64,000 bases of DNA. It comes from Dictyostelium discoideum. Its lineage: Eukaryota. Made by a program: the position numbers and the translations under genes. The notes below the pieces were generated by a model. The model saw nothing but the letters and a program-made list of their open reading frames with translations, searched no databases and was not told the origin of the DNA. Shown here piece after piece: positions 104 to 48,451 of the stretch. The DNA lies in assembly GCA_000004695.1 (NCBI GenBank), contig CM000151.3, forward strand, positions 4,768,001-4,832,000, read 5' to 3'. Position 1 is the stretch's first letter, and each line of letters starts with the position of its first letter.

Positions 104-5452
<5,349 letters not shown>

Positions 5453-6281: not shown

Positions 6282-8049
6282 TTGATCTCTATGAAGCGAT
6301 TTTTTGTGTTGTTTTTCTTTTTAGATCAGCATATTATTTTTATTTTTTTTATTTTTATTTTTTTTTTTAATATTAAGGTAAAGGGGGTAGATGTATTATG
6401 ATTTTGATATTGATAACTAGAGAGTATGCTTAGATTTGAATTAATGTTATTTTTATAACTATACTACTACTATTACTACTATTCACTACTACCCTCATCA
6501 ATATAAATAGAGACCGATGATGTGATATAATTAACCTTTAATCAAATTCATAAGTGAATGTGTTTTTTATTTTATTTTTATTTTTTATTTTTTATTTTTT
6601 TATTTTTTATTATTATTTCTATTTTTTTATTTTTTTTATTTCTATTTTTATTTTCCTTTCTTTTAATTTATTTTATTTTTTGTTGTTGTTGTTGTTGTTG
6701 TGGTTTTGTGTGTGTGAGTGCGAAAACTTTTATTTAAAAAATTACCTTTATAACTTTGTGTTTTATGTGTATTATGAGTGTGGAAAAGATCTTTTAATTT
6801 TTTTTTTTTTTTTTTAATTGAAAAACTTAATATATACACAAAAGAAAAAAAAAAATTTTAAAATTTAAGAAAAAAAAAAAAAAGGAAAACAAAAAAAAAA
6901 AAAAGATTTCTTTTTTTTTTTTTTTTGATTATTTTTTTTAACCTGTTTTTTAAAATTTTTTGGTATAAATAAAAAAAAAAAAAAAATTGTTTAGTGTCGG
7001 AATGTTATCCGTTTTGAGAAAAAAAAAAAAAAATAAATGAAAATAAAAATAAAAATATATTTTACAAAAAAAAAAAAAAAAAAAAATAAAAAAAATAACA
7101 AAAATAAAAAAAAATTAAAATAAAAAAACTTTTGGACCTAAAATATTTATTTTTTTTTATTTTTTTTTTATTTTTTTTTTTATTTTCAAGGCAATAATTA
7201 TTTAAATACTTTTTAGTGATAGAAAAAAAAAAAAAAGAAATCATAATTGACAAGTCATATTTTATTTCAATTTAAAAATAATATATAACATCAGATCCTA
7301 AAAAAAAAATAAAAAAATAAAAAAATAAAAAAATAAAAAAATAAAATAAAATAAAATAGAATAAAATAAAATAAAAATTTTTTAAAAAAGGAGTTTATAA
7401 AAACGTAATTTATTTTTTATTGTTATTTTTATTTTAATTTTTTTGTTATTATTATTTTTTTTCTTTTTCTTTGATAGGAAAAAAAAAAAAAAAAAAAAAT
7501 ATGATCACAATAGATATATACATCATTATTACATTATTTTATATCACATTTATCAATAAGATAATTACCTTTTTATTATTATTATTTTTTTTTTTTTATT
7601 ATTATTTTTTTTATTATTATTATTATTTTTTCTATTTTTATTATTATTATTATTATTATTTTTTCTATTTTTTTTTATTATTATTTTATTTAAAAACCCC
7701 CCTGCCTTAGAAAGGAAATGATAATAAAACCAATGGTTTTTAATAATTTACAAAAAAAAAAAAAAATTAAATTTATGAAGATTGATTCAATTAATTTTTT
7801 TTTAGATCATTTTACAAATTAATTTTTTTTTATTTTTATTTTTATTTTGATTTTGATTTTGATTAAAAAAAAAAAAAAAATAAAAATAAAAAAGAAATCA
7901 ACTTTAAAGATTTAAAAATAAAAAAAGATATCAAATTTTATTTTATTTTATTTTATTTTTTTCTAACTGATTTTTTTAATTAATAGTAATTAACAACTTT
8001 ACCATTTATTTTTTTTTAATACTCATTGCTTTAAAAAATTCATTATTGT

Positions 8050-8085
<36 letters not shown>

Positions 8086-8105
8086 AATATTTTTTTTTTT
8101 TATTA

Positions 8106-8968
8106 TTAATCATTATTATTATTAATATCAATAGTTTGACTATCATCTAAAGGTTGTTGAGATTGTTGTAATGGTTGTTCACTATTTGTTGATATTGATA
8201 TTGAAACATTTGGTTGTGATAAAATTACAGGATTTTGAGAATTTTGTCTACTTGAATATTCAGATTTAAGTTGTTGTTGAGAATATTTTGATTTACTTAC
8301 ACTTGAACTTTCATTATCAACATTGAATGAACTTAAATCAATTTCTAAATTTGCACCAGAATTTTTAATATTACTATTTGAATCATTAAGTGAACCTGCA
8401 CTAGAATTTGAATCTTTTGCAACTTTTTGAAATAAAAAGTAATTTTTCCAATGAGTGCCATCATCAGCCAATGCAACCATCACAACTATACATTGTGGGA
8501 ATTCCAATATGAATGTAACGAAAATTGCAGCATAACGATAATTTGAGTGTGTTGAAATCTTTGAAATCGCTACAACAATCTCTCTAACAATTAATCCTAA
8601 AACAATGAAAATTAAAATCAATGATAATCTTATAGTTCTTGCAATTGTTTTTTGAAATGTTTTAGATTTCTTATCTTGTTTTCTTAAATTTTTAATTAAA
8701 AAGAATCCATTTATAATTAAAAATGTACCCAACAATGCAACCATACAAATAAATCCTTTCCCACTAATTGATGCAACATATTGTGAATCATATTGACTAA
8801 TTAATATCATTAAAATTGTATTCCATGCAAATAATATCACTACAATTCCCCATGCTGAATACCATGTTTTTTTAATATTACCCAATGCTATCTTTTTACT
8901 TGAAAAAAATGTATATAATAATCTAACCCAAAAACAACCAATAAAAATCCTTTTTTTTTTAAATAAAG

Positions 8969-8999
<31 letters not shown>

Positions 9000-9118
9000 A
9001 TATTAATATATTTATTAAAATTAAAAAAAAAAAAAAAAAAAGGATTAAAAAATATCAAAACAAAAAAAAAAAACCTTTCCATTTTTGTTTTTTTAAAAAC
9101 CAAGGGTTTAAGTTTTTT

Positions 9119-9185
<67 letters not shown>

Positions 9186-9535
9186 TAAAATAATAATAAT
9201 AATGATAAATACCATTCAGTTGATAAAAACAAAGTTCCCCATATTACCAAATACCAACTTGGACTACCAGTTCTAGAGTTATGAAAACCTAATGCTAAAA
9301 ATGATTGGATACCTCTACATAATGGAAACAATGTAATACTAACAAATGTAAAAAATCTTGGTGTTGGTTTCCTTCCTTTTCTATATAATGACCTAAATTC
9401 AAAATAGGTTTGAAATAAATTTAAAATGAATAAAATTGAAAATGATACGCCCCTTATTACATAAAATGCTTTAACAACTTCATCATATTCTTTATCGCCA
9501 GTATATGGGAATTCAGCATTGACATCATTTTCCAT
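8106..9535 (-). CDS. Seven-transmembrane membrane protein, ~388 aa. Model: complement(join(8106..8949,9213..9535)) with a phase-2 intron ~8950..9212 (donor TG|GTATTT, acceptor ...AAAAAAAAAAG|G)
   Basis: Exon 1 (MENDVNAEFPYTGDKEY...LSTE) and exon 2 (IFIGCFWVRLLYTFFSSKKIALGNIKKTWYSAWGIVVILFAW...) together give seven hydrophobic ~20-aa segments. The C-terminal ~120 aa are Ser/Asn/Gln-rich and cytosolic-looking. The exon-2 frame stays open upstream of the ORF-track Met back to the proposed acceptor. I cannot place the family from the sequence alone (possibly DUF1084/TOM1-like or another 7TM family); it is not a cAR-type cAMP receptor. Confidence 0.5.
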
Positions 9536-10601
9536 TTTTTTTTTATTTTTTTTATATTTATATTATTTTTTTATTTATTTTTATTTTGATTATTTTTAAA
9601 TTATATTATCTATTTTCAAATTTATTTAATTATTTTATTTTTATTTTTTTTATTATATTTTAATTATTTATTTATTATTATTATTAATTAATTAATTAAT
9701 TTTTTTATTTATTTACTTATTTATTTAATTATTTTTTTTATTTTGTTTTAATAAAAAATAAATAAAATAATTTTTTTTTTTTTTTGACTAAAATTTTATT
9801 TGATCTTCTAATTTACAATACAATAAAATTACTATCTGTAATTTTATTTGATTTTTTTTATTATACAAAAATAAGATTAAAAAAAAAAAAAAAAAAAAAA
9901 AAAGATTTTTAAAAAAAGAAAAAAAAGAAATATAAAAAAAGAAAAAGCTTCTAAAAAAAAAAAAAATAAAAAAAAAAAAATATTTTAATCAAAACAGTTT
10001 TAAAAATAAAAATAAATGATAAAGAGTAAAAAAAATTTCATATCAAATGATTCACCCAAATCATACATTCGATTAGATATTTATAATTTTTTTTTTTCGG
10101 TTAATTATTTTTTTTTAAAAACCACACACGAAAATGTTCATATAAAAAAAAAAACCCTGCATAAAAAAAAAGGTGTTTTTAATGGAAAAAATGAAAAAAA
10201 CCAAAAAATTTAAAATGCGATTTAAAATGAATAAAATTGATAAAATGAAATAAAAAAAAAAATTTAAAATTTAAAAAATTTATAAAAAAAATAAATAAAA
10301 ATAAAATATAAATAATAAAAAATAAAATATAAAGTTTATTAATAAAATATTAATCTTATTAATTTAATTTTAAAATCAAAATATTTTTAACAATTTTTTT
10401 AAAATTTTTAATATAATTCTAAAACTTAATAAAAAAAAATATTAAAATATAAAAAAAATAAAAAAAAATAAAAAAAAAAAAATGAAAAAAAAAAACCATC
10501 AGATTTGGCTGCAAATCAATTCGTTAGTGATGTGAATAATTAAATGATTAATTTTTTAATTTTTTTTGGCAAACCACAAGAAAAACTTTTAAATATCCAA
10601 C

Positions 10602-16887: not shown

Positions 16888-18574
16888 TTATTCTACATCA
16901 GTTAATCTAAAAACATAAACATATGGTGGATAATCTTGTGGTGCAACCATTGGAATGTTTAGTGTAATACCAGGTTTTGTTGATTCAATTGGTAATGATA
17001 CTTCAACACCTTTTTCACCTTTTAAACCTAATAAAGTTGCTTCTGTTTTATTATTACCAATTGGATCACTTAAAATTAAAACACCATCATCTGGTAATTC
17101 AAATACAAATGCATAAACATTACCATTGGTAGTATTTGTAGTATACCAGATGTTAAAAGTCATATTTTGAACTCTCCATGGTGAACTACCATAAATTGAT
17201 TCAGAATTAATTGATAACCAATTACCAATCTCTAATAAACGGTCAACCATATTATTTGGAATTGTACCTTGAGCATCTGGGCCTACATCCAATAAGAAAT
17301 TACCACCACATGCAACCGTTGTTACCAAATCAATTATTAACTCTGTAGCATTTTGATAATCAGTAGCCTGTTCATATTCATCATAACCATATGAATATCC
17401 AATGGTTGCACAATTTTCCCATTTATGTGATTGAAGTTTATATGGATTAAAATGGTCAGCACCAGTATAAAATCCACCATTCTTATCTCTACATTCACTT
17501 CCCCATCTATCATTTACAATTACTGTATCTTTAACACTACTATTTGTATATAACCAACTTAAAAATTCTGTTGATTTCCAATAATTACTTAATTGCATCC
17601 AATCACCATCTGCCCAAATTAATTCAGGTTCTAAAAAATTAAAAATTAAAAAAAAAAAAAAAAAAAAAATTATATTAATAAATATTTTTTAATTAATTAA
17701 TTAATTATATAATAAAAAACCACATACCATATGTTGTAACAATATCTTTTAATTGTTTCATTAAAATTTCATCAACATAAACTTGAGTTGTTGGGTTTTT
17801 ACCAGTTTCAGCATCTGCAAGATATAATGGATTAAACCATTCTATTTTTTTTTTTTTTTTTAAAAAAAAAAACAATATTAGTATTAAAATTAATAAATAA
17901 TAAATTTAATAAAATATTTACCAAATAAAGAATGATAAAGACCCATATGTAAACCCATGTTTTTAACAGATTTTGTTAACTCACCAACGATATCAATACC
18001 AGGACCAGTTTCAACAGAATTCCAATTCCATGATTGTTCACTATTCCAAAGGGTATAACCTTCATGATGTTTTGATGTTAAAACTACATATTTTGCACCA
18101 GATTTTTCAATTATTGATGCCCATTCATTAGCATCGAATAAACGACAATCAAATCTTGAAACGAAATCTTGATATGTAAAATTGGCTCCAAACTCTTTTT
18201 CATGATATCTTTGTGTTGCACCACCATCAGAACTTGGATTTTTTAATGTCCACCAATACCATTCTGCATATCCTCCATTTGCAAATGCTGGTACACTATA
18301 AATTCCAAAATGAATAAATATTCCAAACTTTACATCATCATACTATAATATATTATTATTATTATAAATTTTTTAAAAAAAAAAAAAAAAAATATTAATA
18401 AAAAGTAAAAAATAATAATTATAAAAATAATAATAATAATAATAATAAAAATATAATAATATTTACCCAACCTGGTAATGGTCTTGAATTAATTTGGTCC
18501 CATGTTGGTCCATACTGTTGAGATTTAATTAAATTTAATATTAACAATATAAAAAAAATGATTATCATCTTCAT
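16888..18574 (-). CDS. alfA: Alpha-L-fucosidase (GH29), ~461 aa. Model: complement(join(16888..17630,17728..17841,17922..18342,18467..18574))
   Basis: Exon 1 is a signal peptide (MKMIIIFFILLILNLIKSQQYGPTWDQINSRPLPGW). Exon 2 carries the GH29 N-terminal core 'YDDVKFGIFIHFGIYSVPAFANGGYAEWYWW...HHEGYTLWNS'. The last exon carries 'ACGGNFLLDVGPDAQGTIP'. All three introns begin GTAAAT/GTATGT, end AG, and their phases reconcile (108 + 421 + 114 + 743 nt). The symbol alfA is inferred from the known D. discoideum fucosidase gene name; identity to that locus is not verified. Confidence 0.8.
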
Positions 18575-18764: not shown

Positions 18765-19016
18765 GATCAGTTATACAAATATTTTTTTGAGAATGCCCCA
18801 ACAAAAATAAAAATAAAAATTAAAATAAAAATAAAAATAAAAATAAAAAAAACCCCCACCCCTACCCTATCTAATTAAATTTACAAAAAAAAAAAAAACA
18901 AAATCTATCTAACCAATCATGTTTTTTAAACCCTTTTTTTTACAATTTTTGGGCCAAATATTAAATTAAAAAAAAAGATGAGAAAATTGGATGATTGGGT
19001 AAAATAATATCAGATA

Positions 19017-19066
<50 letters not shown>

Positions 19067-19072
19067 GTTACC

Positions 19073-19340
19073 TTGAAAGAGGGAATAAAATAATTTATTT
19101 ATTGAATATTTTTGGTCCAGTAAGGAGTCAAAAGCTAAATTTTCAAATAAAACTAACCTCCTCTTCCCCCATAAAGAAGGAGTTTGAACGAGCAAATACG
19201 CGATCTCCTTGAAGAGCCGGACTCACGTATAACCCTCGCCCAAGGAGGAGATGTCTAACCATCTTTTAGCCCTAACCTCTTCCGGAAGAGCTCCCCACCC
19301 TCAGCCCCCGGATAATTTGATTTGATTTGATACAGTATTT
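19073..19340. other. GC-rich (~50% G+C) structured island flanked by poly(A) (19019-19063) and T-runs; candidate ncRNA or transposon end module
   Basis: The composition breaks sharply from the surrounding >85% A+T. It contains the perfect 14-nt palindrome CTCTTCCGGAAGAG and a second long hairpin (GATCTCCTTG...CAAGGAGGAGAT). No ORF and no tRNA-like A/B boxes are recognisable. Confidence 0.4.
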
Positions 19341-20346
19341 TTTTTTTCAGTAAATATCCTCACCTAAAGACCACCACATGGACTCATAACCACACACCTT
19401 CACCCAAAGACCACCACATACTGACGCATACCCACCCATCCAAACTCCATAAAATTGATACCTAAAAATACTGAATTAAAAATAATTGATTATTATTCTG
19501 TTTTTGCTTTTTATTATTTTATTTTTTTCTTTTTATTTATAATTATATATAATTCTTACCCTATAATCATAAAATATTAAATAGTTACCAATTGACCACC
19601 ACACCTAATACAAATGATACATTAATTAATTAATTTTTTTTTTTACAACACATACCTTCACCCAAAAACCACCACATGTTGACGCATACCCACCCATCCA
19701 ACCCCATTTGCTTTATACCTAAAAATACTGAATTTAAAATAATTAATTATTATTTTTTTCTTTTTATTTATAATTATATAATTCTTACCCTATAATCATA
19801 AAATATTAAATAGTTACCATATTACTACCACACCTAATACAAATGATTTTTTTTTTTTTTTTTTTCACAACAATCATCATTTGTATTAGGTGTGGTAGTA
19901 AATTGGTAACTATTTAATATTTTATGATTATAGGGTAAGAATTATATAATTATAAATAAAAAGAAAAAAATAATAATTAATTATTTTAAATTCAGTATTT
20001 TTAGGTATAAAGCAAATGGGGTTGGATGGGTGGGTATGCGTCAACATGTGGTGGTTTTTGGGTGAAGGTATGTGTTGTAAAAAAAAAAATTAATTAATTA
20101 ATGTATCATTTGTATTAGGTGTGGTGGTCAATTGGTAACTATTTAATATTTTATGACTGTAGGGTAAGAATTATATATAATTATAAATAAAAAGAAAAAT
20201 ATAAAATAATAAAAAGCAAAAACAGAATAAAAACCAATTATTTTTAATTCAGTCTTTTTAGGTATCAATTATATGGGGTTTTGGTTTTTGGGTGAAGGTA
20301 TGCGTTGTAAAAAAAAAAATTAATTAATTAATGTATCATTTGTATT

Positions 20347-20393
<47 letters not shown>

Positions 20394-20626
20394 TTTTCAC
20401 CACACACACCTTCACCTAAAGATCACCACATGTTGACGAATACCCACCCATCCAACCCCATTTAATTGATACCTAAAAATACTAAATTTAAAATAATTAT
20501 TATTCTGTTTTTGCTTACTATTATTTTATTTCTTTTCTTTTTATTTATAATTATATAATTCTTACCCTATAAAACATAAAATATTTATGACTTACCTTAA
20601 AGTTCATCAATTGACCTCATACAAAT

Positions 20627-20680
<54 letters not shown>

Positions 20681-20900
20681 CACAACACATACATTCACCT
20701 AAAGACCACCACATGTTGACGAATACCCACCCATCCAACCCATATGCTTTATACCTAAAAATACTAAATTTAAAATAATTTATTATTATTCTGTTTTTTC
20801 TTTTTATTCATATGATAAAAATATTTAATCTACCACCTATAAATTAAATTAAAAATACCTACCTTGAAAGACCACTCACCGTATGACGCACACACATAAT
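19340..20900. mobile_element. Cluster of ~8 copies of a ~230-250-bp repeat unit that carries a poly(A) tail in one orientation. Four copies form an imperfect ~1-kb palindrome (arms 19380..19858 and 19874..20345, centred on a T15 run at 19859..19873). Two further direct copies lie at ~20396..20640 and ~20685..20900
   Basis: The unit is (plus-strand orientation) poly(T)-CACAACACATACCTTCACCCAAAGACCACCACATGTTGACGCATACCCACCCATCCAACCCCA...CCTAAAAATACTGAATTTAAAATAATT...TTATAATTATATAATTCTTACCCTATAATCATAAAATATTAAATAGTTACC...ACCACACCTAATACAAATGA. Exact reverse complements (e.g. GGTAACTATTTAATATTTTATGATTATAGGGTAAGAATTATATAATTATAAATAAAAAG) appear at 19874..20105 and again at 20105..20345. Family assignment (TRE, DIRS, thug, DDT or other) is not possible from memory. 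Confidence 0.7.
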
Positions 20901-21143
20901 AAATATAATTATTATTATTAATTTTTTTTTTTAATTAGTTTTTTATTTTTATTTTTATTTATGTTTTTATTTTTATTCTAATTTAATATTATTTAAATAA
21001 TAAAGAAAAAGGTGAATTAAGTGTATTTCTAAAATTCTATTACTCTCTATCACAATATTTATTTGTTTGCTATAAAATAAAAATAAATAAAAATATAAAA
21101 AAAAAAAAAATTGAAACATTTTTTTTTCCAAATTTGAACACAC

Positions 21144-21175
<32 letters not shown>

Positions 21176-21317
21176 AATTTAATAAATTTATTTATTCATT
21201 ATTTTTAAAAAAAGACATATATTTTATTTGGAAACACCATTATTATATTCTTTATTGAATTCTCCAAGAAAAAAAAAAAAAAAAAAAATTAAGTACGGTA
21301 GTGAATAAATTTATTTT

Positions 21318-22330
21318 TTAATTTTTAAAATTTGTTTTTTCAATAATTAAATAAAGTTGAGATAATTGATCAAGATCTGTGATATGAATACAATGTTGAG
21401 ATCTATAATCTACATATTTATTTCTTTGAAGATGTTTCAAAGTGTAATAGTAAACCATCTGGAGTGATTTCGCAAGATTTAATATTTCAAAAGTAGAAGA
21501 CCATCTGAATGAGTAGTTATTCCTTATTTGTTTGTTTAACAAGGACAATACGAAGATTTGTTATTAAGGTGATATAATTCTTTACACTACCACCACCACC
21601 ACCATTATTGAAATAAATGATATAGAGATGGGAATTTTTGAATCTACCCTTGAAAGTTGTTTCCAAAATGTAGTGACCCTCTGATTGTTCGTGGAAATTA
21701 TATTCAACCAAAAGATTATCAGTGCCAAATAAACGTGGTGGTTCCGATAAGAATGGATTCTCCAATACAATGCATTCAAACATAATGGCGTTCTATCTAA
21801 ACCAATTAGGTCAATTAATGATACACCAATTCTTGGTAATGATAATTGTAAATCCAATTTACAATTTTCAACACAGTTTGTGATAAATATGATGATGAAT
21901 CATCCTTTGGTTGATCATAATTATTATTATTACTATTATCATAAGATAATAGTAATACACATATTGGTCCATCAACTTTCATAAATGAATGCAATTTGTA
22001 TTGATGCCTATTTTAATTGGTTTAAAATTCTTACAACCCAATATTACACAATTGATGAAGAGTATGATGATTCAAATGTTGAATGATTTTCAATATATAG
22101 ATTATTATTATTATCATTATTTATATCATTATTTGAATTTGTTGTTGTTGATGATGATTATGATTACTATGATTGGAGTGGTAGTAATCATAATCATAAT
22201 CATCATCATAATCATCATCATCATCATCATCATCAAATTTAATTTGAATTAATTTTTCACCATGTCTATTTGGCCAATGGAATGGTTTTGATTCACCTGG
22301 TTCAATTGATTTACAATCTTTGTACGTTGT
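21318..22330 (-). pseudogene. Fragmented minus-strand coding locus of unknown function. It has several frame changes, at least one plausible 70-nt intron (21795..21864, GTAAAT...TTTAGATAG), and no identifiable start codon. It is either a multi-micro-intron gene whose first exon I cannot find, or a decayed pseudogene
   Basis: Coding-like, non-low-complexity segments lie in three different frames: '...DCKSIEPGESKPFHWPNRHGEKLIQIKFDDDDDDDDYDDDYDYDYYHSNHSNH', 'HQYKLHSFMKVDGPICVLLLSYDNSNNNNYDQPKDDSSSYLSQTVLKI', 'NAIMFECIVLENPFLSEPPRLFGTDNLLVEYNFHEQSEGHYILETTFKGRFKNSHLYIIYFNNGGGGGSVK' and 'LLNKQIRNNYSFRWSSTFEILNLAKSLQMVYYYTLKHLQRNKYVDYRSQHCIHITDLDQLSQLYLIIEKTNFKN*'. No ATG occurs on the minus strand between 22321 and 22560. 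Confidence 0.35.
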
Positions 22331-22572
22331 AATTTATTTTTACCCAGTATTCTAATCGATGCTCTAAAATTATATCTCTATTATCACTATTTGATTTTAA
22401 TTGTTACTTAAATTCTGGAAATTATTATTATTTATTTGAACAATTGTTAAATTATTTCCTTGATATATAAAAATTTTGATTAAATCCAAGAATTAAAAAT
22501 AAATATAAAAAAAAGATAATTCTTGATTTATATTTTTTTTTTTTTTTTATTTCTTTTTTATTTATTTATTTA

Positions 22573-31223: not shown

Positions 31224-32040
31224 TTAATCTTTAATTTCAACAACATATTCTGGTGAGAATTTACCATAAACACCTTTAGTTTCACCTTCCCATTCTTTTG
31301 GACTATTCTTTTTGAAAACATAAACAAGATCATCTCTAATTAAAGTTAATGTAGCATTATTAGTAGGAATACAATCTTTAATGACACGACAAGTTGCTAA
31401 AATTGGATTTGAATCAAATGCATCTTCATCATCCCAATCATCATCATCATCATTTTTTGGTTTTGGTGTTGGAGTTGGTGCTGCTGGTCTTGAAACTGGT
31501 GTTGGTTTTGATACTGGTGTTGGTGCTGGTGCTCCTGCACTAGTTGATGTTAATGGTCTTGGTGCTGGTTTTGGTACACCAGTAGTTGTAGGTACTGGAG
31601 TAGTTGTAGTTCCTGCTGCTATTAAAATATTAAAATTAAAATTTATTTATTTGATTAGTTTAAATTTTTTTTTTTTTAAAAAAAAAAAGAAACAACATAC
31701 GTTTTAATGGAGCACCTGCTGGTTTTAATGGTGATGGAGTTGGAGCACCTGCTGGTTTTAATGGTGATGAAGTTGGTGCACCTGCTGGTTTTAATGGTGA
31801 TGGGGTTGGTGCACCTGCTGGTTTCAATGGTGATGAAGTTGGTGGTGCACCTGCTGGTTTCAATGGTGAACCTGCTGGTTTTAATGGTGATGAAGTTGGT
31901 GGTGCTGCACCTGTTGGTGGAGCTGGTGTTGGTCTAGCTGCAACTGGTGGTGGTGTAGTAGTGGTACCAACTTTAGCGCCAAATGGTGATGGTTTTAATG
32001 GTGCTGGTGCTGGTTTTGCTAATGGTTTTCCAAAACTCAT
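31224..32040 (-). CDS. Proline-rich protein with a C-terminal SH3 domain, ~244 aa. Model: complement(join(31224..31618,31701..32040)) with a phase-1 intron (C|GTATGT...TTAATAG)
   Basis: Exon 1 encodes MSFGKPLAKPAPAPLKPSPFGAKVGTTTTPPPVAARPTPAPP...(SPLKPAGAP)n. Exon 2 ends with an acidic patch and 'ATCRVIKDCIPTNNATLTLIRDDLVYVFKKNSPKEWEGETKGVYGKFSPEYVVEIKD', which fits the SH3 fold pattern (ALYDY...GD.I.V....WW.G...G..G.FP..YV). The opposite-strand ORF 31381..31707 (Gly/Val-rich) is its antisense reading. Confidence 0.6.
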
Positions 32041-32166
32041 TTTATATGTATATGTAAGTGTATATTTAAAAATTGAATAAAAATAAAAAAATAAAAAACA
32101 ATAAAAAACAATAAACAGATATGAAAAATAATCCAACGAAAAAAAAAAAAAAAATAATCAAGTGAT

Positions 32167-47158: not shown

Positions 47159-48451
47159 TTAAAAAGTTAAAACACTATTTTTTAATCTTGATTTTTCAGA
47201 TTCAAATACTAATTTATGAGAAGCAAGAGTATCATCAGGACCAGATAAAATTTGAGTTGGATCATTTTCAGAGACTGCATAAATAAATGATCTCATGAGG
47301 TAATAATCTGAAGCACCATGATTTGACATTTTTGTATTTTGAATTATTTGTGGTTTAAAGATTTCTTTATCACCAAATCTAAAGTCATCATAGACGATGT
47401 CATAACCATTGTTACATTCTAATTGACCCATTGAACCAAAGATTCTAATTTTACGTACACACATACTCTCTGTGAATGCAACCATACTAAAAGAGGAGAG
47501 AGCACCACCTTCAAATTCTAAATTCACAACTTGCTGATCGACTACGTCATTATCACTCTCATAGACACATCTACCATAGGGACCGTTTTCAATTGCCAAT
47601 TTAACATTCTCTTTTGTTGGCTCTCTATCTGGTACTAGTACATCCCTTTTCCAAGGATAATGCTCTAAATAAATCTTTTGAGCACTGTATGGACACGTTT
47701 TGCTAATTGCGCATTCTACACATCTCTTTGCACTACCAGCATTGGTAGGTTTTTTCTCCTTTTTAAAGTATGTCAAGCTACCAAATGACGATACTTTCTT
47801 GCACTTTTTTCCGCCCATAAAATAATGAATCAAGTCAAGATCATGACACGACTTTGCCAATAGCATGAATGTCGAGGTTGAGAGTTTTCTCCAATTGCCT
47901 CTGACATAGGAATGGGCGTGGTGGTAGTACCCCACAGGCTCCAAATGCTGGATGTTTAGCACCTCCCCTATCAATCCACTGTCTATCAATTGCTTGATTT
48001 TAATATTAACCGGTGAGTATCTCAATACGTGGCAAACAGATAACATGACATTGTTGGCTTTGCAAGCTGATGTAATTCTCTCACAATCTTTTTCAGTGAT
48101 AGCTAATGGTTTCTCTACTAATAAATGATACTTTTTATTAGCAAATGCAATTGCAGGCTCACAATGTAATTGGTCGGGTGTTGCTATTAACACTGCATCT
48201 GCGAATTTATCCATTGATATTATGTCTTTCCAATTTTCAAATATCATATCACTTGATAATCCAAATTCATTACCAAGTGTATCTCTTCTAAATTTAATTG
48301 GATCACATACTGCAACAATCTTTAATCTATTTGGTCTTTCAATTGAATATCTACTATAAACATATCCTCTTTGACCACACCCAATTATTATTAATTTTAC
48401 AATTTTATTATTATCAAATTTCTTTTCTTCATTTTCAATATTATCTTCCAT
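47159..48451 (-). CDS. Gfo/Idh/MocA-family NAD(P)-dependent oxidoreductase, 430 aa, single exon
   Basis: N-terminal Rossmann 'KLIIIGCGQRGYVYSRYSIERPNRLKIVAVCDP' and 'AVLIATPDQLHCEPAIAFANKKYHLLVEKPLAITEKDCERI' (the conserved EKP motif) are present. The C-terminal alpha/beta domain is typical of the family. Confidence 0.8.
   Translation of the reverse strand: MEDNIENEEKKFDNNKIVKLIIIGCGQRGYVYSRYSIERPNRLKIVAVCDPIKFRRDTLGNEFGLSSDMIFENWKDIISMDKFADAVLIATPDQLHCEPAIAFANKKYHLLVEKPLAITEKDCERITSACKANNVMLSVCHVLRYSPVNIKIKQLIDSGLIGEVLNIQHLEPVGYYHHAHSYVRGNWRKLSTSTFMLLAKSCHDLDLIHYFMGGKKCKKVSSFGSLTYFKKEKKPTNAGSAKRCVECAISKTCPYSAQKIYLEHYPWKRDVLVPDREPTKENVKLAIENGPYGRCVYESDNDVVDQQVVNLEFEGGALSSFSMVAFTESMCVRKIRIFGSMGQLECNNGYDIVYDDFRFGDKEIFKPQIIQNTKMSNHGASDYYLMRSFIYAVSENDPTQILSGPDDTLASHKLVFESEKSRLKNSVLTF

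What the first reader, a model, noticed from the sequence alone, without database searches (positions are those of the whole stretch)
19073..19340. GC-rich, strongly self-complementary ~270-bp island in an A+T desert: candidate structured ncRNA or transposon promoter module
G+C jumps to roughly 50% against a background below 15%. The segment contains a perfect 14-nt palindrome (CTCTTCCGGAAGAG) and a second extended hairpin (GATCTCCTTG / CAAGGAGGAGAT). It is bounded by a 45-nt poly(A) on one side and T-runs on the other; on the minus strand it would be followed by a long T tract, as pol III transcripts are. It directly abuts the palindromic repeat cluster, so it may be the 5' (promoter, A-module-like) end of the same element. 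Alternatively it may be an independent small RNA gene, since Dictyostelium ncRNA genes typically appear as GC-rich blips of this kind.
Basis: partly seen in the sequence, partly recalled or inferred. Interest (0 to 1): 0.6.

Follow-up and report, generated by a model that had tools for sequence, protein, structure and literature searches.

The report
3' end of the mir-7105 transcript
The GC-rich island is not a gene of its own: it is the last ~270 bases of the published primary transcript of the Dictyostelium microRNA gene mir-7105, and it is a broken half of a GC-rich hairpin that belongs to a young, inserted repeat module.

Summary
The window is D. discoideum AX4 chromosome 2, 4,768,001-4,832,000. 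The island (19073-19340) is real, but only its right half (19199-19337) reaches 51% G+C. The interval as given does not fold better than shuffled sequence.

Published poly(A) RNA-seq (Liao et al. 2018, Table S3) predicts pri-mir-7105 at chr2:4787074-4789074 on the minus strand, which is window 19074-21074. The transcript starts at a T-run+G motif that I verified at 21143. It runs through the neighbouring inverted-repeat cluster and ends in the island, 20-24 nt after two AATAAA signals.

A paralogue on another chromosome of a near-identical strain carries the same promoter region, the same ~200-240-bp repeat units and a complete GC-rich hairpin with a ~100-bp uninterrupted stem (z = -29.9). The AX4 island keeps only the loop and one arm of that hairpin.

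The whole 3,440-bp block (VPS13 gene fragment, promoter, repeats, island) is flanked by a 7-bp duplication. It is absent from the orthologous site in three related genomes.

No Rfam family, tRNA gene or significant DUSE signal supports an independent small-RNA gene. The island sits at the 3' end of the transcript, not at a promoter. Verdict: part of a known miRNA locus, so low interest; the evolutionary origin is mildly interesting.

The parts
18968..22407 (.). 3,440-bp block found only in the AX4 lineage. It contains the A-rich leader, the island, the repeat cluster, an AT-rich spacer with the promoter, and the VPS13-fragment gene.
   Evidence: Present in AX4 and L004. Absent from L005, L006 and L007, where the flanks are contiguous. 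Removing it restores collinearity with those genomes.
18961..18967 (.). Left copy of the 7-bp direct repeat TTAAATT (target-site duplication).
   Evidence: The empty sites in L005, L006 and L007 carry a single TTAAATT.
22408..22414 (.). Right copy of the 7-bp direct repeat TTAAATT.
19074..21074 (-). Published predicted primary transcript of ddi-mir-7105 (chr2/DDB0232429:4787074-4789074).
   Evidence: Liao et al. 2018 (PMC6161686), Suppl. Table S3. The coordinate offset of +4,768,000 comes from two gene spans (ORFs) and was checked against the start-site motif.
21143..21172 (-). T29 run followed by G on the minus strand. This is the published T-rich+G start-site motif of pri-mir-7105 (reported at 4789143-4789167).
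   Evidence: The surrounding region is 92% conserved in paralogue L011.
19430..20293 (-). Long inverted repeat built from ~200-240-bp units (arms 19430-19854 and 19869-20293, 96% complementary). It forms the dominant hairpin of the transcript.
   Evidence: The minimum-energy fold of the 2001-nt transcript contains a 255-bp uninterrupted stem here.
19199..19337 (-). GC-rich core of the island (51% G+C). It corresponds to the loop (about 19199-19238) plus one arm (about 19239-19337) of the family's GC-rich hairpin module.
   Evidence: 89.7% identical to L011 12204-12318. Three-way alignment A1. In L011 the full module folds with a ~100-bp uninterrupted stem, MFE -200.8 kcal/mol, z = -29.9.
19277..19290 (.). 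Perfect 14-nt palindrome CTCTTCCGGAAGAG inside the GC arm.
   Evidence: The core TCTTCCGGAAGA is present in both arms of the L011 hairpin.
19179..19202 (-). Diverged inverted copy of a repeat-unit head segment. In the minus-strand RNA it pairs with 19425-19448 over 24 bp (16 Watson-Crick and 8 G·U pairs).
   Evidence: with direct reading. All 8 differences from a perfect inverted copy are transitions. The segment 19170-19460 folds with z = -2.91 on the minus strand and -0.63 on the plus strand.
19065..19178 (-). Left, less GC-rich part of the island (31% G+C over 19065-19198). Origin unresolved. It contains the reported 3' end of the transcript.
   Evidence: No significant similarity to the missing hairpin arm, to the repeat unit, or to any locus held.
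19094..19103 (-). Two overlapping AATAAA poly(A) signals on the minus strand, 20-24 nt upstream of the reported transcript end at 19074.
   Evidence: Read directly.
19019..19064 (.). A46 run (T46 on the transcribed strand) just beyond the reported transcript end.
21517..21783 (-). DDB_G0274983, an 88-aa ORF that is a fragment of a VPS13 C-terminal domain. It was carried in with the block, upstream of the miRNA promoter.
   Evidence: Pfam VPS13_C, E = 6.6e-8. Exact match to XP_644264.1. Paralogue P0039 found in L011.

Best explanation
The island is the 3'-terminal segment of the primary transcript of the microRNA gene ddi-mir-7105. It is not a separate gene.

Proposed course of events. Transcription starts at the G that follows a T29 run at window 21143 on the minus strand. 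This is a published prediction, and I verified the motif in the sequence. By analogy with other D. discoideum pri-miRNAs, the polymerase is RNA polymerase II; that step is inferred. The transcript crosses six ~200-240-bp repeat units arranged in direct and inverted order. These fold into a very long hairpin, which is the substrate for the Dicer-like enzyme DrnB and its partner RbdB (their role is published for D. discoideum miRNAs in general). The transcript ends in the island near 19074, 20-24 nt after two AATAAA signals.

Why the island is GC-rich. Its right half descends from a GC-rich hairpin module that caps the repeat array in this family. A paralogous copy still has the complete hairpin. 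The AX4 copy keeps only the loop and one arm, probably after a deletion of about 117 bp (inferred), so it cannot form the long hairpin.

What the remnant may still do. On the transcribed strand it can pair with the neighbouring unit head through a 24-bp stem with G·U pairs. It may therefore contribute a modest structured 3' domain (inferred).

Origin of the gene. The whole gene, with a VPS13 gene fragment, arrived as a 3,440-bp insertion with a 7-bp target duplication, 394 bp upstream of the alfA start codon. This happened in the AX4 lineage after it split from its closest sequenced relatives.
For: Locus identity:
- Window ORF 47159-48451 is an exact match to DDB_G0274185 of AX4 chromosome 2. 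alfA is DDB_G0274391.
- The coordinate offset of +4,768,000 comes from two gene spans, DDB_G0274211 and DDB_G0274393 (with ORFs). It is confirmed by the published T-run+G motif falling exactly on a T29-G at 21143.

Transcript:
- Pri-mir-7105 is predicted at 4787074-4789074 on the minus strand from poly(A) RNA-seq.
- AATAAA signals lie 20-24 nt before that end.

Origin of the island:
- The island core is homologous to the loop plus one arm of a complete hairpin in L011.
- The promoter region is 92% conserved in L011.

Structure:
- Folding is better than shuffled sequence only on the transcribed strand.

Insertion:
- The block is an insertion with a 7-bp duplication.
- alfA identities polarise the event: AX4 = L004, about 97% to L005/L006, 92.9% to L007.
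Against: - The published transcript is exactly 2,000 nt long. The 3' coordinate could therefore be a cap, or a mapping limit at the T46 run, rather than a true poly(A) site.
- The position of mature miR-7105 within 19074-21074 could not be obtained, so I cannot say whether the island is a passive trailer or part of the processed precursor.
- AATAAA is common in this AT-rich genome.
- The start site is a published prediction for this locus, not an experimentally mapped site.
- The ~117-bp deletion model rests on a single paralogue.
- L011 comes from a near-identical strain, not from AX4 itself.
Confidence: 0.8

Rival explanations
1. The island is a functional part of the miRNA precursor rather than a passive 3' trailer. 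In this reading the 24-bp G·U-containing stem (19448-19425 with 19202-19179), or another island hairpin, is the duplex or basal stem from which miR-7105 is cut.
For: - The stem is about the length of a miRNA duplex.
- All 8 arm differences are transitions that keep pairing only on the transcribed strand.
- The segment 19170-19460 folds with z = -2.91 on the minus strand and -0.63 on the plus strand.
- A 255-bp uninterrupted stem elsewhere in the transcript looks more like an siRNA source than a canonical miRNA hairpin.
Against: - The loop enclosed by the 24-bp stem is about 220 nt, which is long for a miRNA hairpin.
- No small-RNA data could be consulted.
- K-mers from the island and from the repeat units were not found in the miRNA tables and supplements I could read.
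- Eight transitions is a small sample.
Confidence: 0.15
2. The island is an independent small non-coding RNA gene. Either it is driven by the DUSE-like motif CCCCCATAAA at 19166-19175 on the plus strand, or it is pol III-transcribed on the minus strand and terminated by the T46 run.
For: - A DUSE core CCCATAA lies at 19168-19174.
- There is a T10 run downstream on the plus strand and a T46 run downstream on the minus strand.
- GC-rich islands are typical of Dictyostelium ncRNA genes (background knowledge).
Against: - CCCAYAA occurs 13 times in the window against 14.1 expected by chance.
- Rfam finds no family at gathering threshold, and nothing credible in the island at E up to 10.
- The Class I 11-nt motif is absent.
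- The interval does not fold better than shuffles.
- The sequence is missing from the orthologous site in L005-L010.
- Its core is demonstrably half of a repeat-family hairpin.
Confidence: 0.03
3. The island is the 5' promoter or terminal module of a transposable element whose body is the repeat cluster.
For: - The island is contiguous with the repeat units in two genomic copies.
- The 3,440-bp block has a 7-bp target-site duplication, so it did insert.
- TTCCGGAA is a palindromic site of the kind proteins bind (sequence reading only).
Against: - The mapped transcription runs toward the island, not from it.
- The window has no tRNA gene, which the TRE families require nearby.
- The ends of the inserted block have no terminal inverted repeats and are not shared with the paralogue.
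- No transposase or reverse-transcriptase ORF is present.
Confidence: 0.05

Closest known systems
ddi-mir-7105 (D. discoideum miRNA gene; Avesson et al. 2012; pri-miRNA prediction in Liao et al. 2018, RNA Biol 15:937, Table S3)
   Same: The island lies inside the published pri-miRNA coordinates, on the reported strand, downstream of the reported T-rich+G start motif.
   Different: The publications I could read give only coordinates. They do not describe the GC-rich 3' segment, its origin as half of a hairpin module, the paralogous copy, or the insertion. The mature miRNA position relative to the island is unknown to me.
Gain and loss of whole miRNA 'modules' between D. discoideum and D. firmibasis (NAR 2024, PMC11014262, section 23)
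   Same: The entire mir-7105 locus is absent from the orthologous intergenic region of related genomes. That paper reports the same pattern for other D. discoideum miRNAs.
   Different: Here the gain is resolved to a 3,440-bp insertion with a 7-bp duplication, inside the D. discoideum species complex, and a probable sister copy is identified.
Foldback-type elements, whose long inverted repeats are built from tandem subrepeats (for example Drosophila FB)
   Same: There are arrays of ~200-240-bp units in inverted orientation around a palindromic centre. Unit copy number differs between near-identical strains. The block carries unrelated DNA (a VPS13 fragment) and has a target-site duplication.
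   Different: The inserted block has no inverted termini. The duplication is 7 bp (FB gives 9 bp, from my own knowledge). There is no transposase. Only two copies were seen.
D. discoideum thug-S repeat, a known multicopy source of miRNAs
   Same: It is a repeat-associated miRNA locus in the same organism.
   Different: Liao et al. list mir-7105 among the intergenic loci that they analysed separately from thug-S-derived miRNAs. No thug sequence was available for comparison.
miRNA birth from inverted duplications (the plant model of Allen et al. 2004, from my own knowledge)
   Same: A near-perfect long inverted repeat is transcribed from its own promoter, and a younger, uninterrupted hairpin exists in the paralogue.
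   Different: The hairpin arms are repeat units, not copies of a recognisable target gene.

Membership tests
ddi-mir-7105 primary transcript | Lies within the published pri-miRNA coordinates on the reported strand | tested here: met
   chr2:4787074-4789074 (-) equals window 19074-21074. The offset was verified by the motif position.
ddi-mir-7105 primary transcript | T-rich tract ending in G upstream of the first poly(A) RNA-seq read | tested here: met
   T29 followed by G at 21143 on the minus strand, 69 nt upstream of 21074.
ddi-mir-7105 primary transcript | The transcript contains a hairpin able to give a miRNA duplex | tested here: met
   A 425-nt inverted repeat, 96% complementary. The minimum-energy fold has a 255-bp uninterrupted stem plus smaller hairpins.
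ddi-mir-7105 primary transcript | Mature 5p/3p small RNAs map to the island and depend on DrnB | not testable with these tools
   Avesson 2012 is not held. No mature sequence was found in the accessible texts.
DUSE-dependent small ncRNA genes (Class I RNAs, snRNAs) | DUSE ([A/T]CCCA[C/T]AA) about 60 nt upstream of the start site | tested here: inconclusive
   CCCATAA is present at 19168-19174, preceded by C. The core occurs 13 times in the window against 14.1 expected.
DUSE-dependent small ncRNA genes (Class I RNAs, snRNAs) | Match to a curated RNA family, or the Class I 11-nt motif | tested here: not met
   No Rfam hit in the island. CCTTACAGCAA is absent even with one mismatch allowed.
DUSE-dependent small ncRNA genes (Class I RNAs, snRNAs) | Conservation at the orthologous locus in related dictyostelids | tested here: not met
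   Absent from L005, L006, L007, L008, L009 and L010.
TRE5/TRE3 tRNA-gene-targeted retrotransposons (A-module analogy) | A tRNA gene within about 50-150 bp | tested here: not met
   ARAGORN finds no tRNA gene in the 64-kb window or in L011.
TRE5/TRE3 tRNA-gene-targeted retrotransposons (A-module analogy) | Sequence identity to A/B/C modules | not testable with these tools
   No Dictyostelium repeat library is available.
Foldback or inverted-repeat DNA element | Long inverted arrays of tandem subrepeats | tested here: met
Foldback or inverted-repeat DNA element | Target-site duplication at an insertion that has an empty-site allele | tested here: met
   TTAAATT on both sides. Empty sites are present in L005, L006 and L007.
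Foldback or inverted-repeat DNA element | Inverted termini at the ends of the mobile unit, shared between copies | tested here: not met
   The ends (AAAAAAAAAGATGAG... and ...TAATTGTTAC) are not inverted repeats of each other. They are also absent from L011.
Named D. discoideum repeats (thug-S/T, DDT-A/B/S, Tdd-4/5, DIRS-1, Skipper, DGLT-A) | Sequence match to the family consensus | not testable with these tools
Glöckner et al. 2001 is not held.

The most novel reading that the evidence does not exclude
mir-7105 is a very young miRNA gene that arose when a composite, mobile 'miRNA module' inserted upstream of alfA in the AX4 lineage. The module consists of a promoter, inverted ~200-240-bp units and a GC-rich hairpin cap, and it travels with a VPS13 gene fragment. 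A sister copy on another chromosome still carries a ~100-bp uninterrupted GC-rich hairpin and would be a second, apparently unannotated small-RNA gene. The transition-only, G·U-preserving divergence in the AX4 island would then reflect selection for, or strand-specific mutation in, the RNA structure of the transcribed strand.
Probability: 0.3. Interest if true: 0.5.

Novelty: already known. Interest (0 to 1): 0.25.

Why it matters
For genome annotation the result is ordinary. The island should be read as the 3' end of an already catalogued miRNA primary transcript, not as a new RNA gene or a transposon promoter.

The mildly useful by-product is evolutionary. The locus gives a base-pair-resolved example of how a Dictyostelium miRNA gene can appear, namely as a 3.4-kb insertion with a target-site duplication and a recognisable sister copy. 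This fits the published observation that D. discoideum miRNAs are almost never conserved even in close relatives.

The insertion also lies 394 bp upstream of the alfA start codon. It could be checked for effects on alfA expression between strains.

Tried and rejected
- Rfam, at gathering threshold on the whole window and at E up to 10 on 17.5-21.5 kb. Only sub-threshold miRNA-shaped hits appeared, at the apex of the neighbouring inverted repeat. The L011 hairpin behaved the same way.
- tRNA scan: none found.
- Coding potential. Only 20-61-aa ORFs overlap the island, and none of those looked up is in the protein collection.
- Bacterial, vector or viral origin. No BLASTN match in E. coli genomes or plasmids. 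No exact-pattern match in metagenome or viral contigs.
- Known miRNA sequences from Meier et al. 2016, Table 2. None occurs in the window or in any fetched locus with up to 3 mismatches.
- K-mers of the island and of the repeat units in miRNA paper supplements and in the full-text library. No relevant hits.
- lncRNA catalogue (Rosengarten et al.). No entry at chr2:4.786-4.789 Mb in the files held.
- Homology of the island's left part (19065-19198) to the missing hairpin arm or to an inverted repeat unit. Not significant, even when transitions were scored as half-matches.
- Helitron-type or inverted-repeat-type termini for the inserted block. Not present (direct reading).
- Looking for the source VPS13 gene next to the paralogue. 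The upstream gene in L011 is unrelated.
- Testing how old the L011 copy is, using D. dimigraforme. The whole 13.5-kb neighbourhood is absent there, so the comparison is uninformative.
- First protein search with the alfA C-terminal exon. It returned no dictyostelid. The workaround was an exact look-up of the spliced protein.

Full report
**What is in the sequence**

Window 19073-19340 lies in a 2.8-kb intergenic stretch. On one side is the start codon of the alpha-L-fucosidase gene alfA, which is on the minus strand with exons at 16888-18574. On the other side is the 3' end of a small VPS13-like gene.

- The 150-bp window with the highest G+C in the whole 64 kb (0.54) starts at 19160.
- The reported interval as a whole is only 40.7% G+C and has two parts. 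19065-19198 is 31% and 19199-19337 is 51%. The left flank is 14.5% and the repeat cluster on the right is 23.7%.
- The 14-nt palindrome CTCTTCCGGAAGAG is real (19277-19290). Only 1.8% of shuffled islands contain a palindrome that long.
- The interval does not fold better than shuffled sequence on either strand: z = -0.30 and -1.10.
- Long A or T runs are everywhere in this window, with 65 runs of at least 20 nt, so the flanking runs say little.

**Independent RNA gene: tested and not supported**

- Rfam gives nothing at gathering threshold for the whole window, and nothing credible in the island at E up to 10.
- There is no tRNA gene in the window.
- The plus strand has a DUSE-like CCCATAA at 19168-19174. 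The core CCCAYAA occurs 13 times in the window against 14.1 expected by chance.
- The Class I RNA 11-nt motif is absent.
- Only very short ORFs overlap the island.

**Identity of the locus and comparison with relatives**

- ORF 47159-48451 is an exact match to DDB_G0274185 of D. discoideum AX4 chromosome 2.
- The spliced alfA protein is an exact match to DDB_G0274391.
- Using alfA cluster members I fetched the orthologous loci from seven other Dictyostelium assemblies.
- One D. discoideum strain (L004) is 100% identical over the island and over alfA.
- Two more divergent 'D. discoideum' assemblies (L005 and L006, alfA about 97% identical) and D. cf. discoideum (L007, 92.9%) lack everything between about window 18968 and 22407.
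- Deleting 18968-22414 from AX4 restores a sequence collinear with their single TTAAATT site. AX4 therefore carries a 3,440-bp insertion flanked by a 7-bp duplication.
- The alfA identities place L007 outside the group formed by AX4/L004 and L005/L006. A single insertion in the AX4 lineage is therefore the parsimonious reading.
- In D. firmibasis, D. citrinum and D. dimigraforme a different gene (vatH) lies upstream of alfA, and the island is absent.

**A paralogue explains the GC-rich core**

- The inserted block includes DDB_G0274983, an 88-aa ORF that is a fragment of the VPS13 C-terminal domain.
- An exhaustive protein search found one short paralogue, P0039. It lies on another chromosome of the L004 strain, in locus L011.
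- L011 9836-12423 matches window 22146-19200 at 74-90% identity. The match covers the VPS13 fragment, the AT-rich spacer, the ~200-240-bp repeat units and the GC-rich part of the island.
- In L011 the GC-rich sequence is a complete palindrome. L011 12105-12340 folds into a hairpin with a ~100-bp uninterrupted stem, MFE -200.8 kcal/mol and z = -29.9.
- The AX4 island core (19199-19337) aligns to the loop plus one arm of that hairpin at 89.7% identity.
- The other arm is missing in AX4. The sequence in its place (19065-19178) matches nothing that I hold.
- Immediately left of the loop, 19179-19202 is a diverged inverted copy of a unit-head segment. This suggests that AX4 lost about 117 bp (one arm plus part of a unit) from a full palindrome. 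That step is inferred.
- L004 has one unit fewer than AX4.

**The locus is a known miRNA gene**

- Two gene spans in the supplement of Rosengarten et al. fix the window at chr2:4,768,001-4,832,000. DDB_G0274211 at chr2:4768104-4773452 corresponds to window 104-5452, and DDB_G0274393 at 4776106-4777535 corresponds to 8106-9535 (with ORFs).
- Liao et al. 2018, Supplementary Table S3, lists the predicted pri-mir-7105 at DDB0232429:4787074-4789074, minus orientation. The prediction is derived from poly(A) RNA-seq coverage. A T-rich tract ending in G is reported at 4789143-4789167.
- In window coordinates that transcript is 19074-21074, and the motif is at 21143-21167.
- The minus strand there reads T29 followed by G, with the G at 21143. 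This independently confirms the offset.
- The authors state that reads extended across the predicted hairpin for 14 intergenic miRNA loci, and that such transcripts accumulate without DrnB.
- The island is therefore the last ~267 nt of this transcript.
- On the minus strand, two overlapping AATAAA signals (19103-19098 and 19099-19094) lie 20-24 nt upstream of the reported end.
- The start-site region is 92% conserved in L011. The paralogue is probably also a transcription unit (inferred).

**Structure in context**

- The minimum-energy fold of the 2001-nt transcript is dominated by the long inverted repeat, with arms at 20270-19876 and 19453-19847, including a 255-bp uninterrupted stem.
- The island is predicted to pair with the adjacent unit head: 19448-19425 with 19179-19202 (24 bp, 16 Watson-Crick and 8 G·U), and 19413-19400 with 19302-19315.
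- The segment 19170-19460 folds with z = -2.91 on the minus strand but -0.63 on the plus strand.
- All eight differences between the two 24-nt arms are transitions that remain paired only in the transcribed strand. This may reflect structural constraint or strand-biased mutation. The sample is small and I leave it as an open observation.

**Limits**

- I could not obtain the mature miR-7105 sequence. Avesson 2012 is not held, and the name appears nowhere else in the accessible text.
- The published transcript length is exactly 2,000 nt, so the 3' coordinate may be a cap or a mapping limit at the T46 run.
- There is no genome-wide DNA search of AX4 and no Dictyostelium repeat library. Copy number and any match to thug, DDT or other named repeats therefore remain untested.
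- No lncRNA is listed at this position in the catalogue files held.

**Verdict**

The feature belongs to an already catalogued miRNA locus. Its origin as a recent 3.4-kb insertion with a sister copy agrees with the published view that D. discoideum miRNA 'modules' are gained and lost quickly.

Noticed in passing
window 19391-20812; L004 (reverse-complemented 7500-10000): The repeat array differs by one ~230-bp unit between AX4 and the otherwise near-identical strain L004. The 425-nt palindrome of AX4 is therefore not the same in L004. This is either copy-number instability or an assembly difference.
   Followed up: partly
L011 12105-12340: GC-rich hairpin with a ~100-bp uninterrupted stem (z = -29.9), downstream of a conserved mir-7105-like start region. 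It is a candidate unannotated hairpin small-RNA gene near oatA, on another chromosome of a D. discoideum strain.
   Followed up: partly
window 19179-19202 and 19425-19448: The two 24-nt inverted segments differ at 8 positions, all of them transitions. They stay fully paired (G·U) only in the minus-strand RNA.
   Followed up: partly
window ~18680 compared with L005 9790-9920, and likewise L006 and L007: AX4 lacks a segment of about 125 bp in the alfA upstream region ('ccccctttaccttaaaatt...gctgtaa') that is present in L005, L006 and L007. The segment is bounded by CCCC runs. Part of it (TTACCTT...AATAAAATAATTTATT) resembles window 19067-19099 at the island's left edge. The similarity is weak and was not shown to be significant.
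   Followed up: partly
L008, L009 and L010 upstream of alfA: There is a synteny breakpoint immediately upstream of alfA. The neighbouring gene is vatH in D. firmibasis, D. citrinum and D. dimigraforme, and a BRCT-domain gene in the D. discoideum group.
   Followed up: no
L011 5594-19111 compared with L012: A 13.5-kb stretch containing five gene models and the mir-7105-like paralogue is absent between oatA and the next shared gene in D. dimigraforme.
   Followed up: no
L011 12590-12780: Minisatellite of CA-rich ~8-bp units (cacattaa / catatcaa variants) just beyond the paralogue's hairpin. It is preceded by 'gtcgccggttcgattc', which resembles a tRNA T-arm, although ARAGORN calls no tRNA there.
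   Followed up: no
window 31380-32069: The second-highest G+C peak of the window (0.53) is a Pro/Ala-rich repetitive coding region (PLKPAGAP repeats). Of the G+C peaks I examined, the island is the only non-coding one.
   Followed up: partly
window 6285-6900 (+): By the coordinate offset, the published lncRNA CUFF_1348_1 (chr2:4774285-4774900, +) lies here, between DDB_G0274211 and DDB_G0274393.
   Followed up: no
window 20860-20871 and 19069-19080: The 12-mer TACCTTGAAAGA occurs at the left edge of the island and at the degenerate last repeat unit. It may be a remnant of a unit head at both ends of the array.
   Followed up: no
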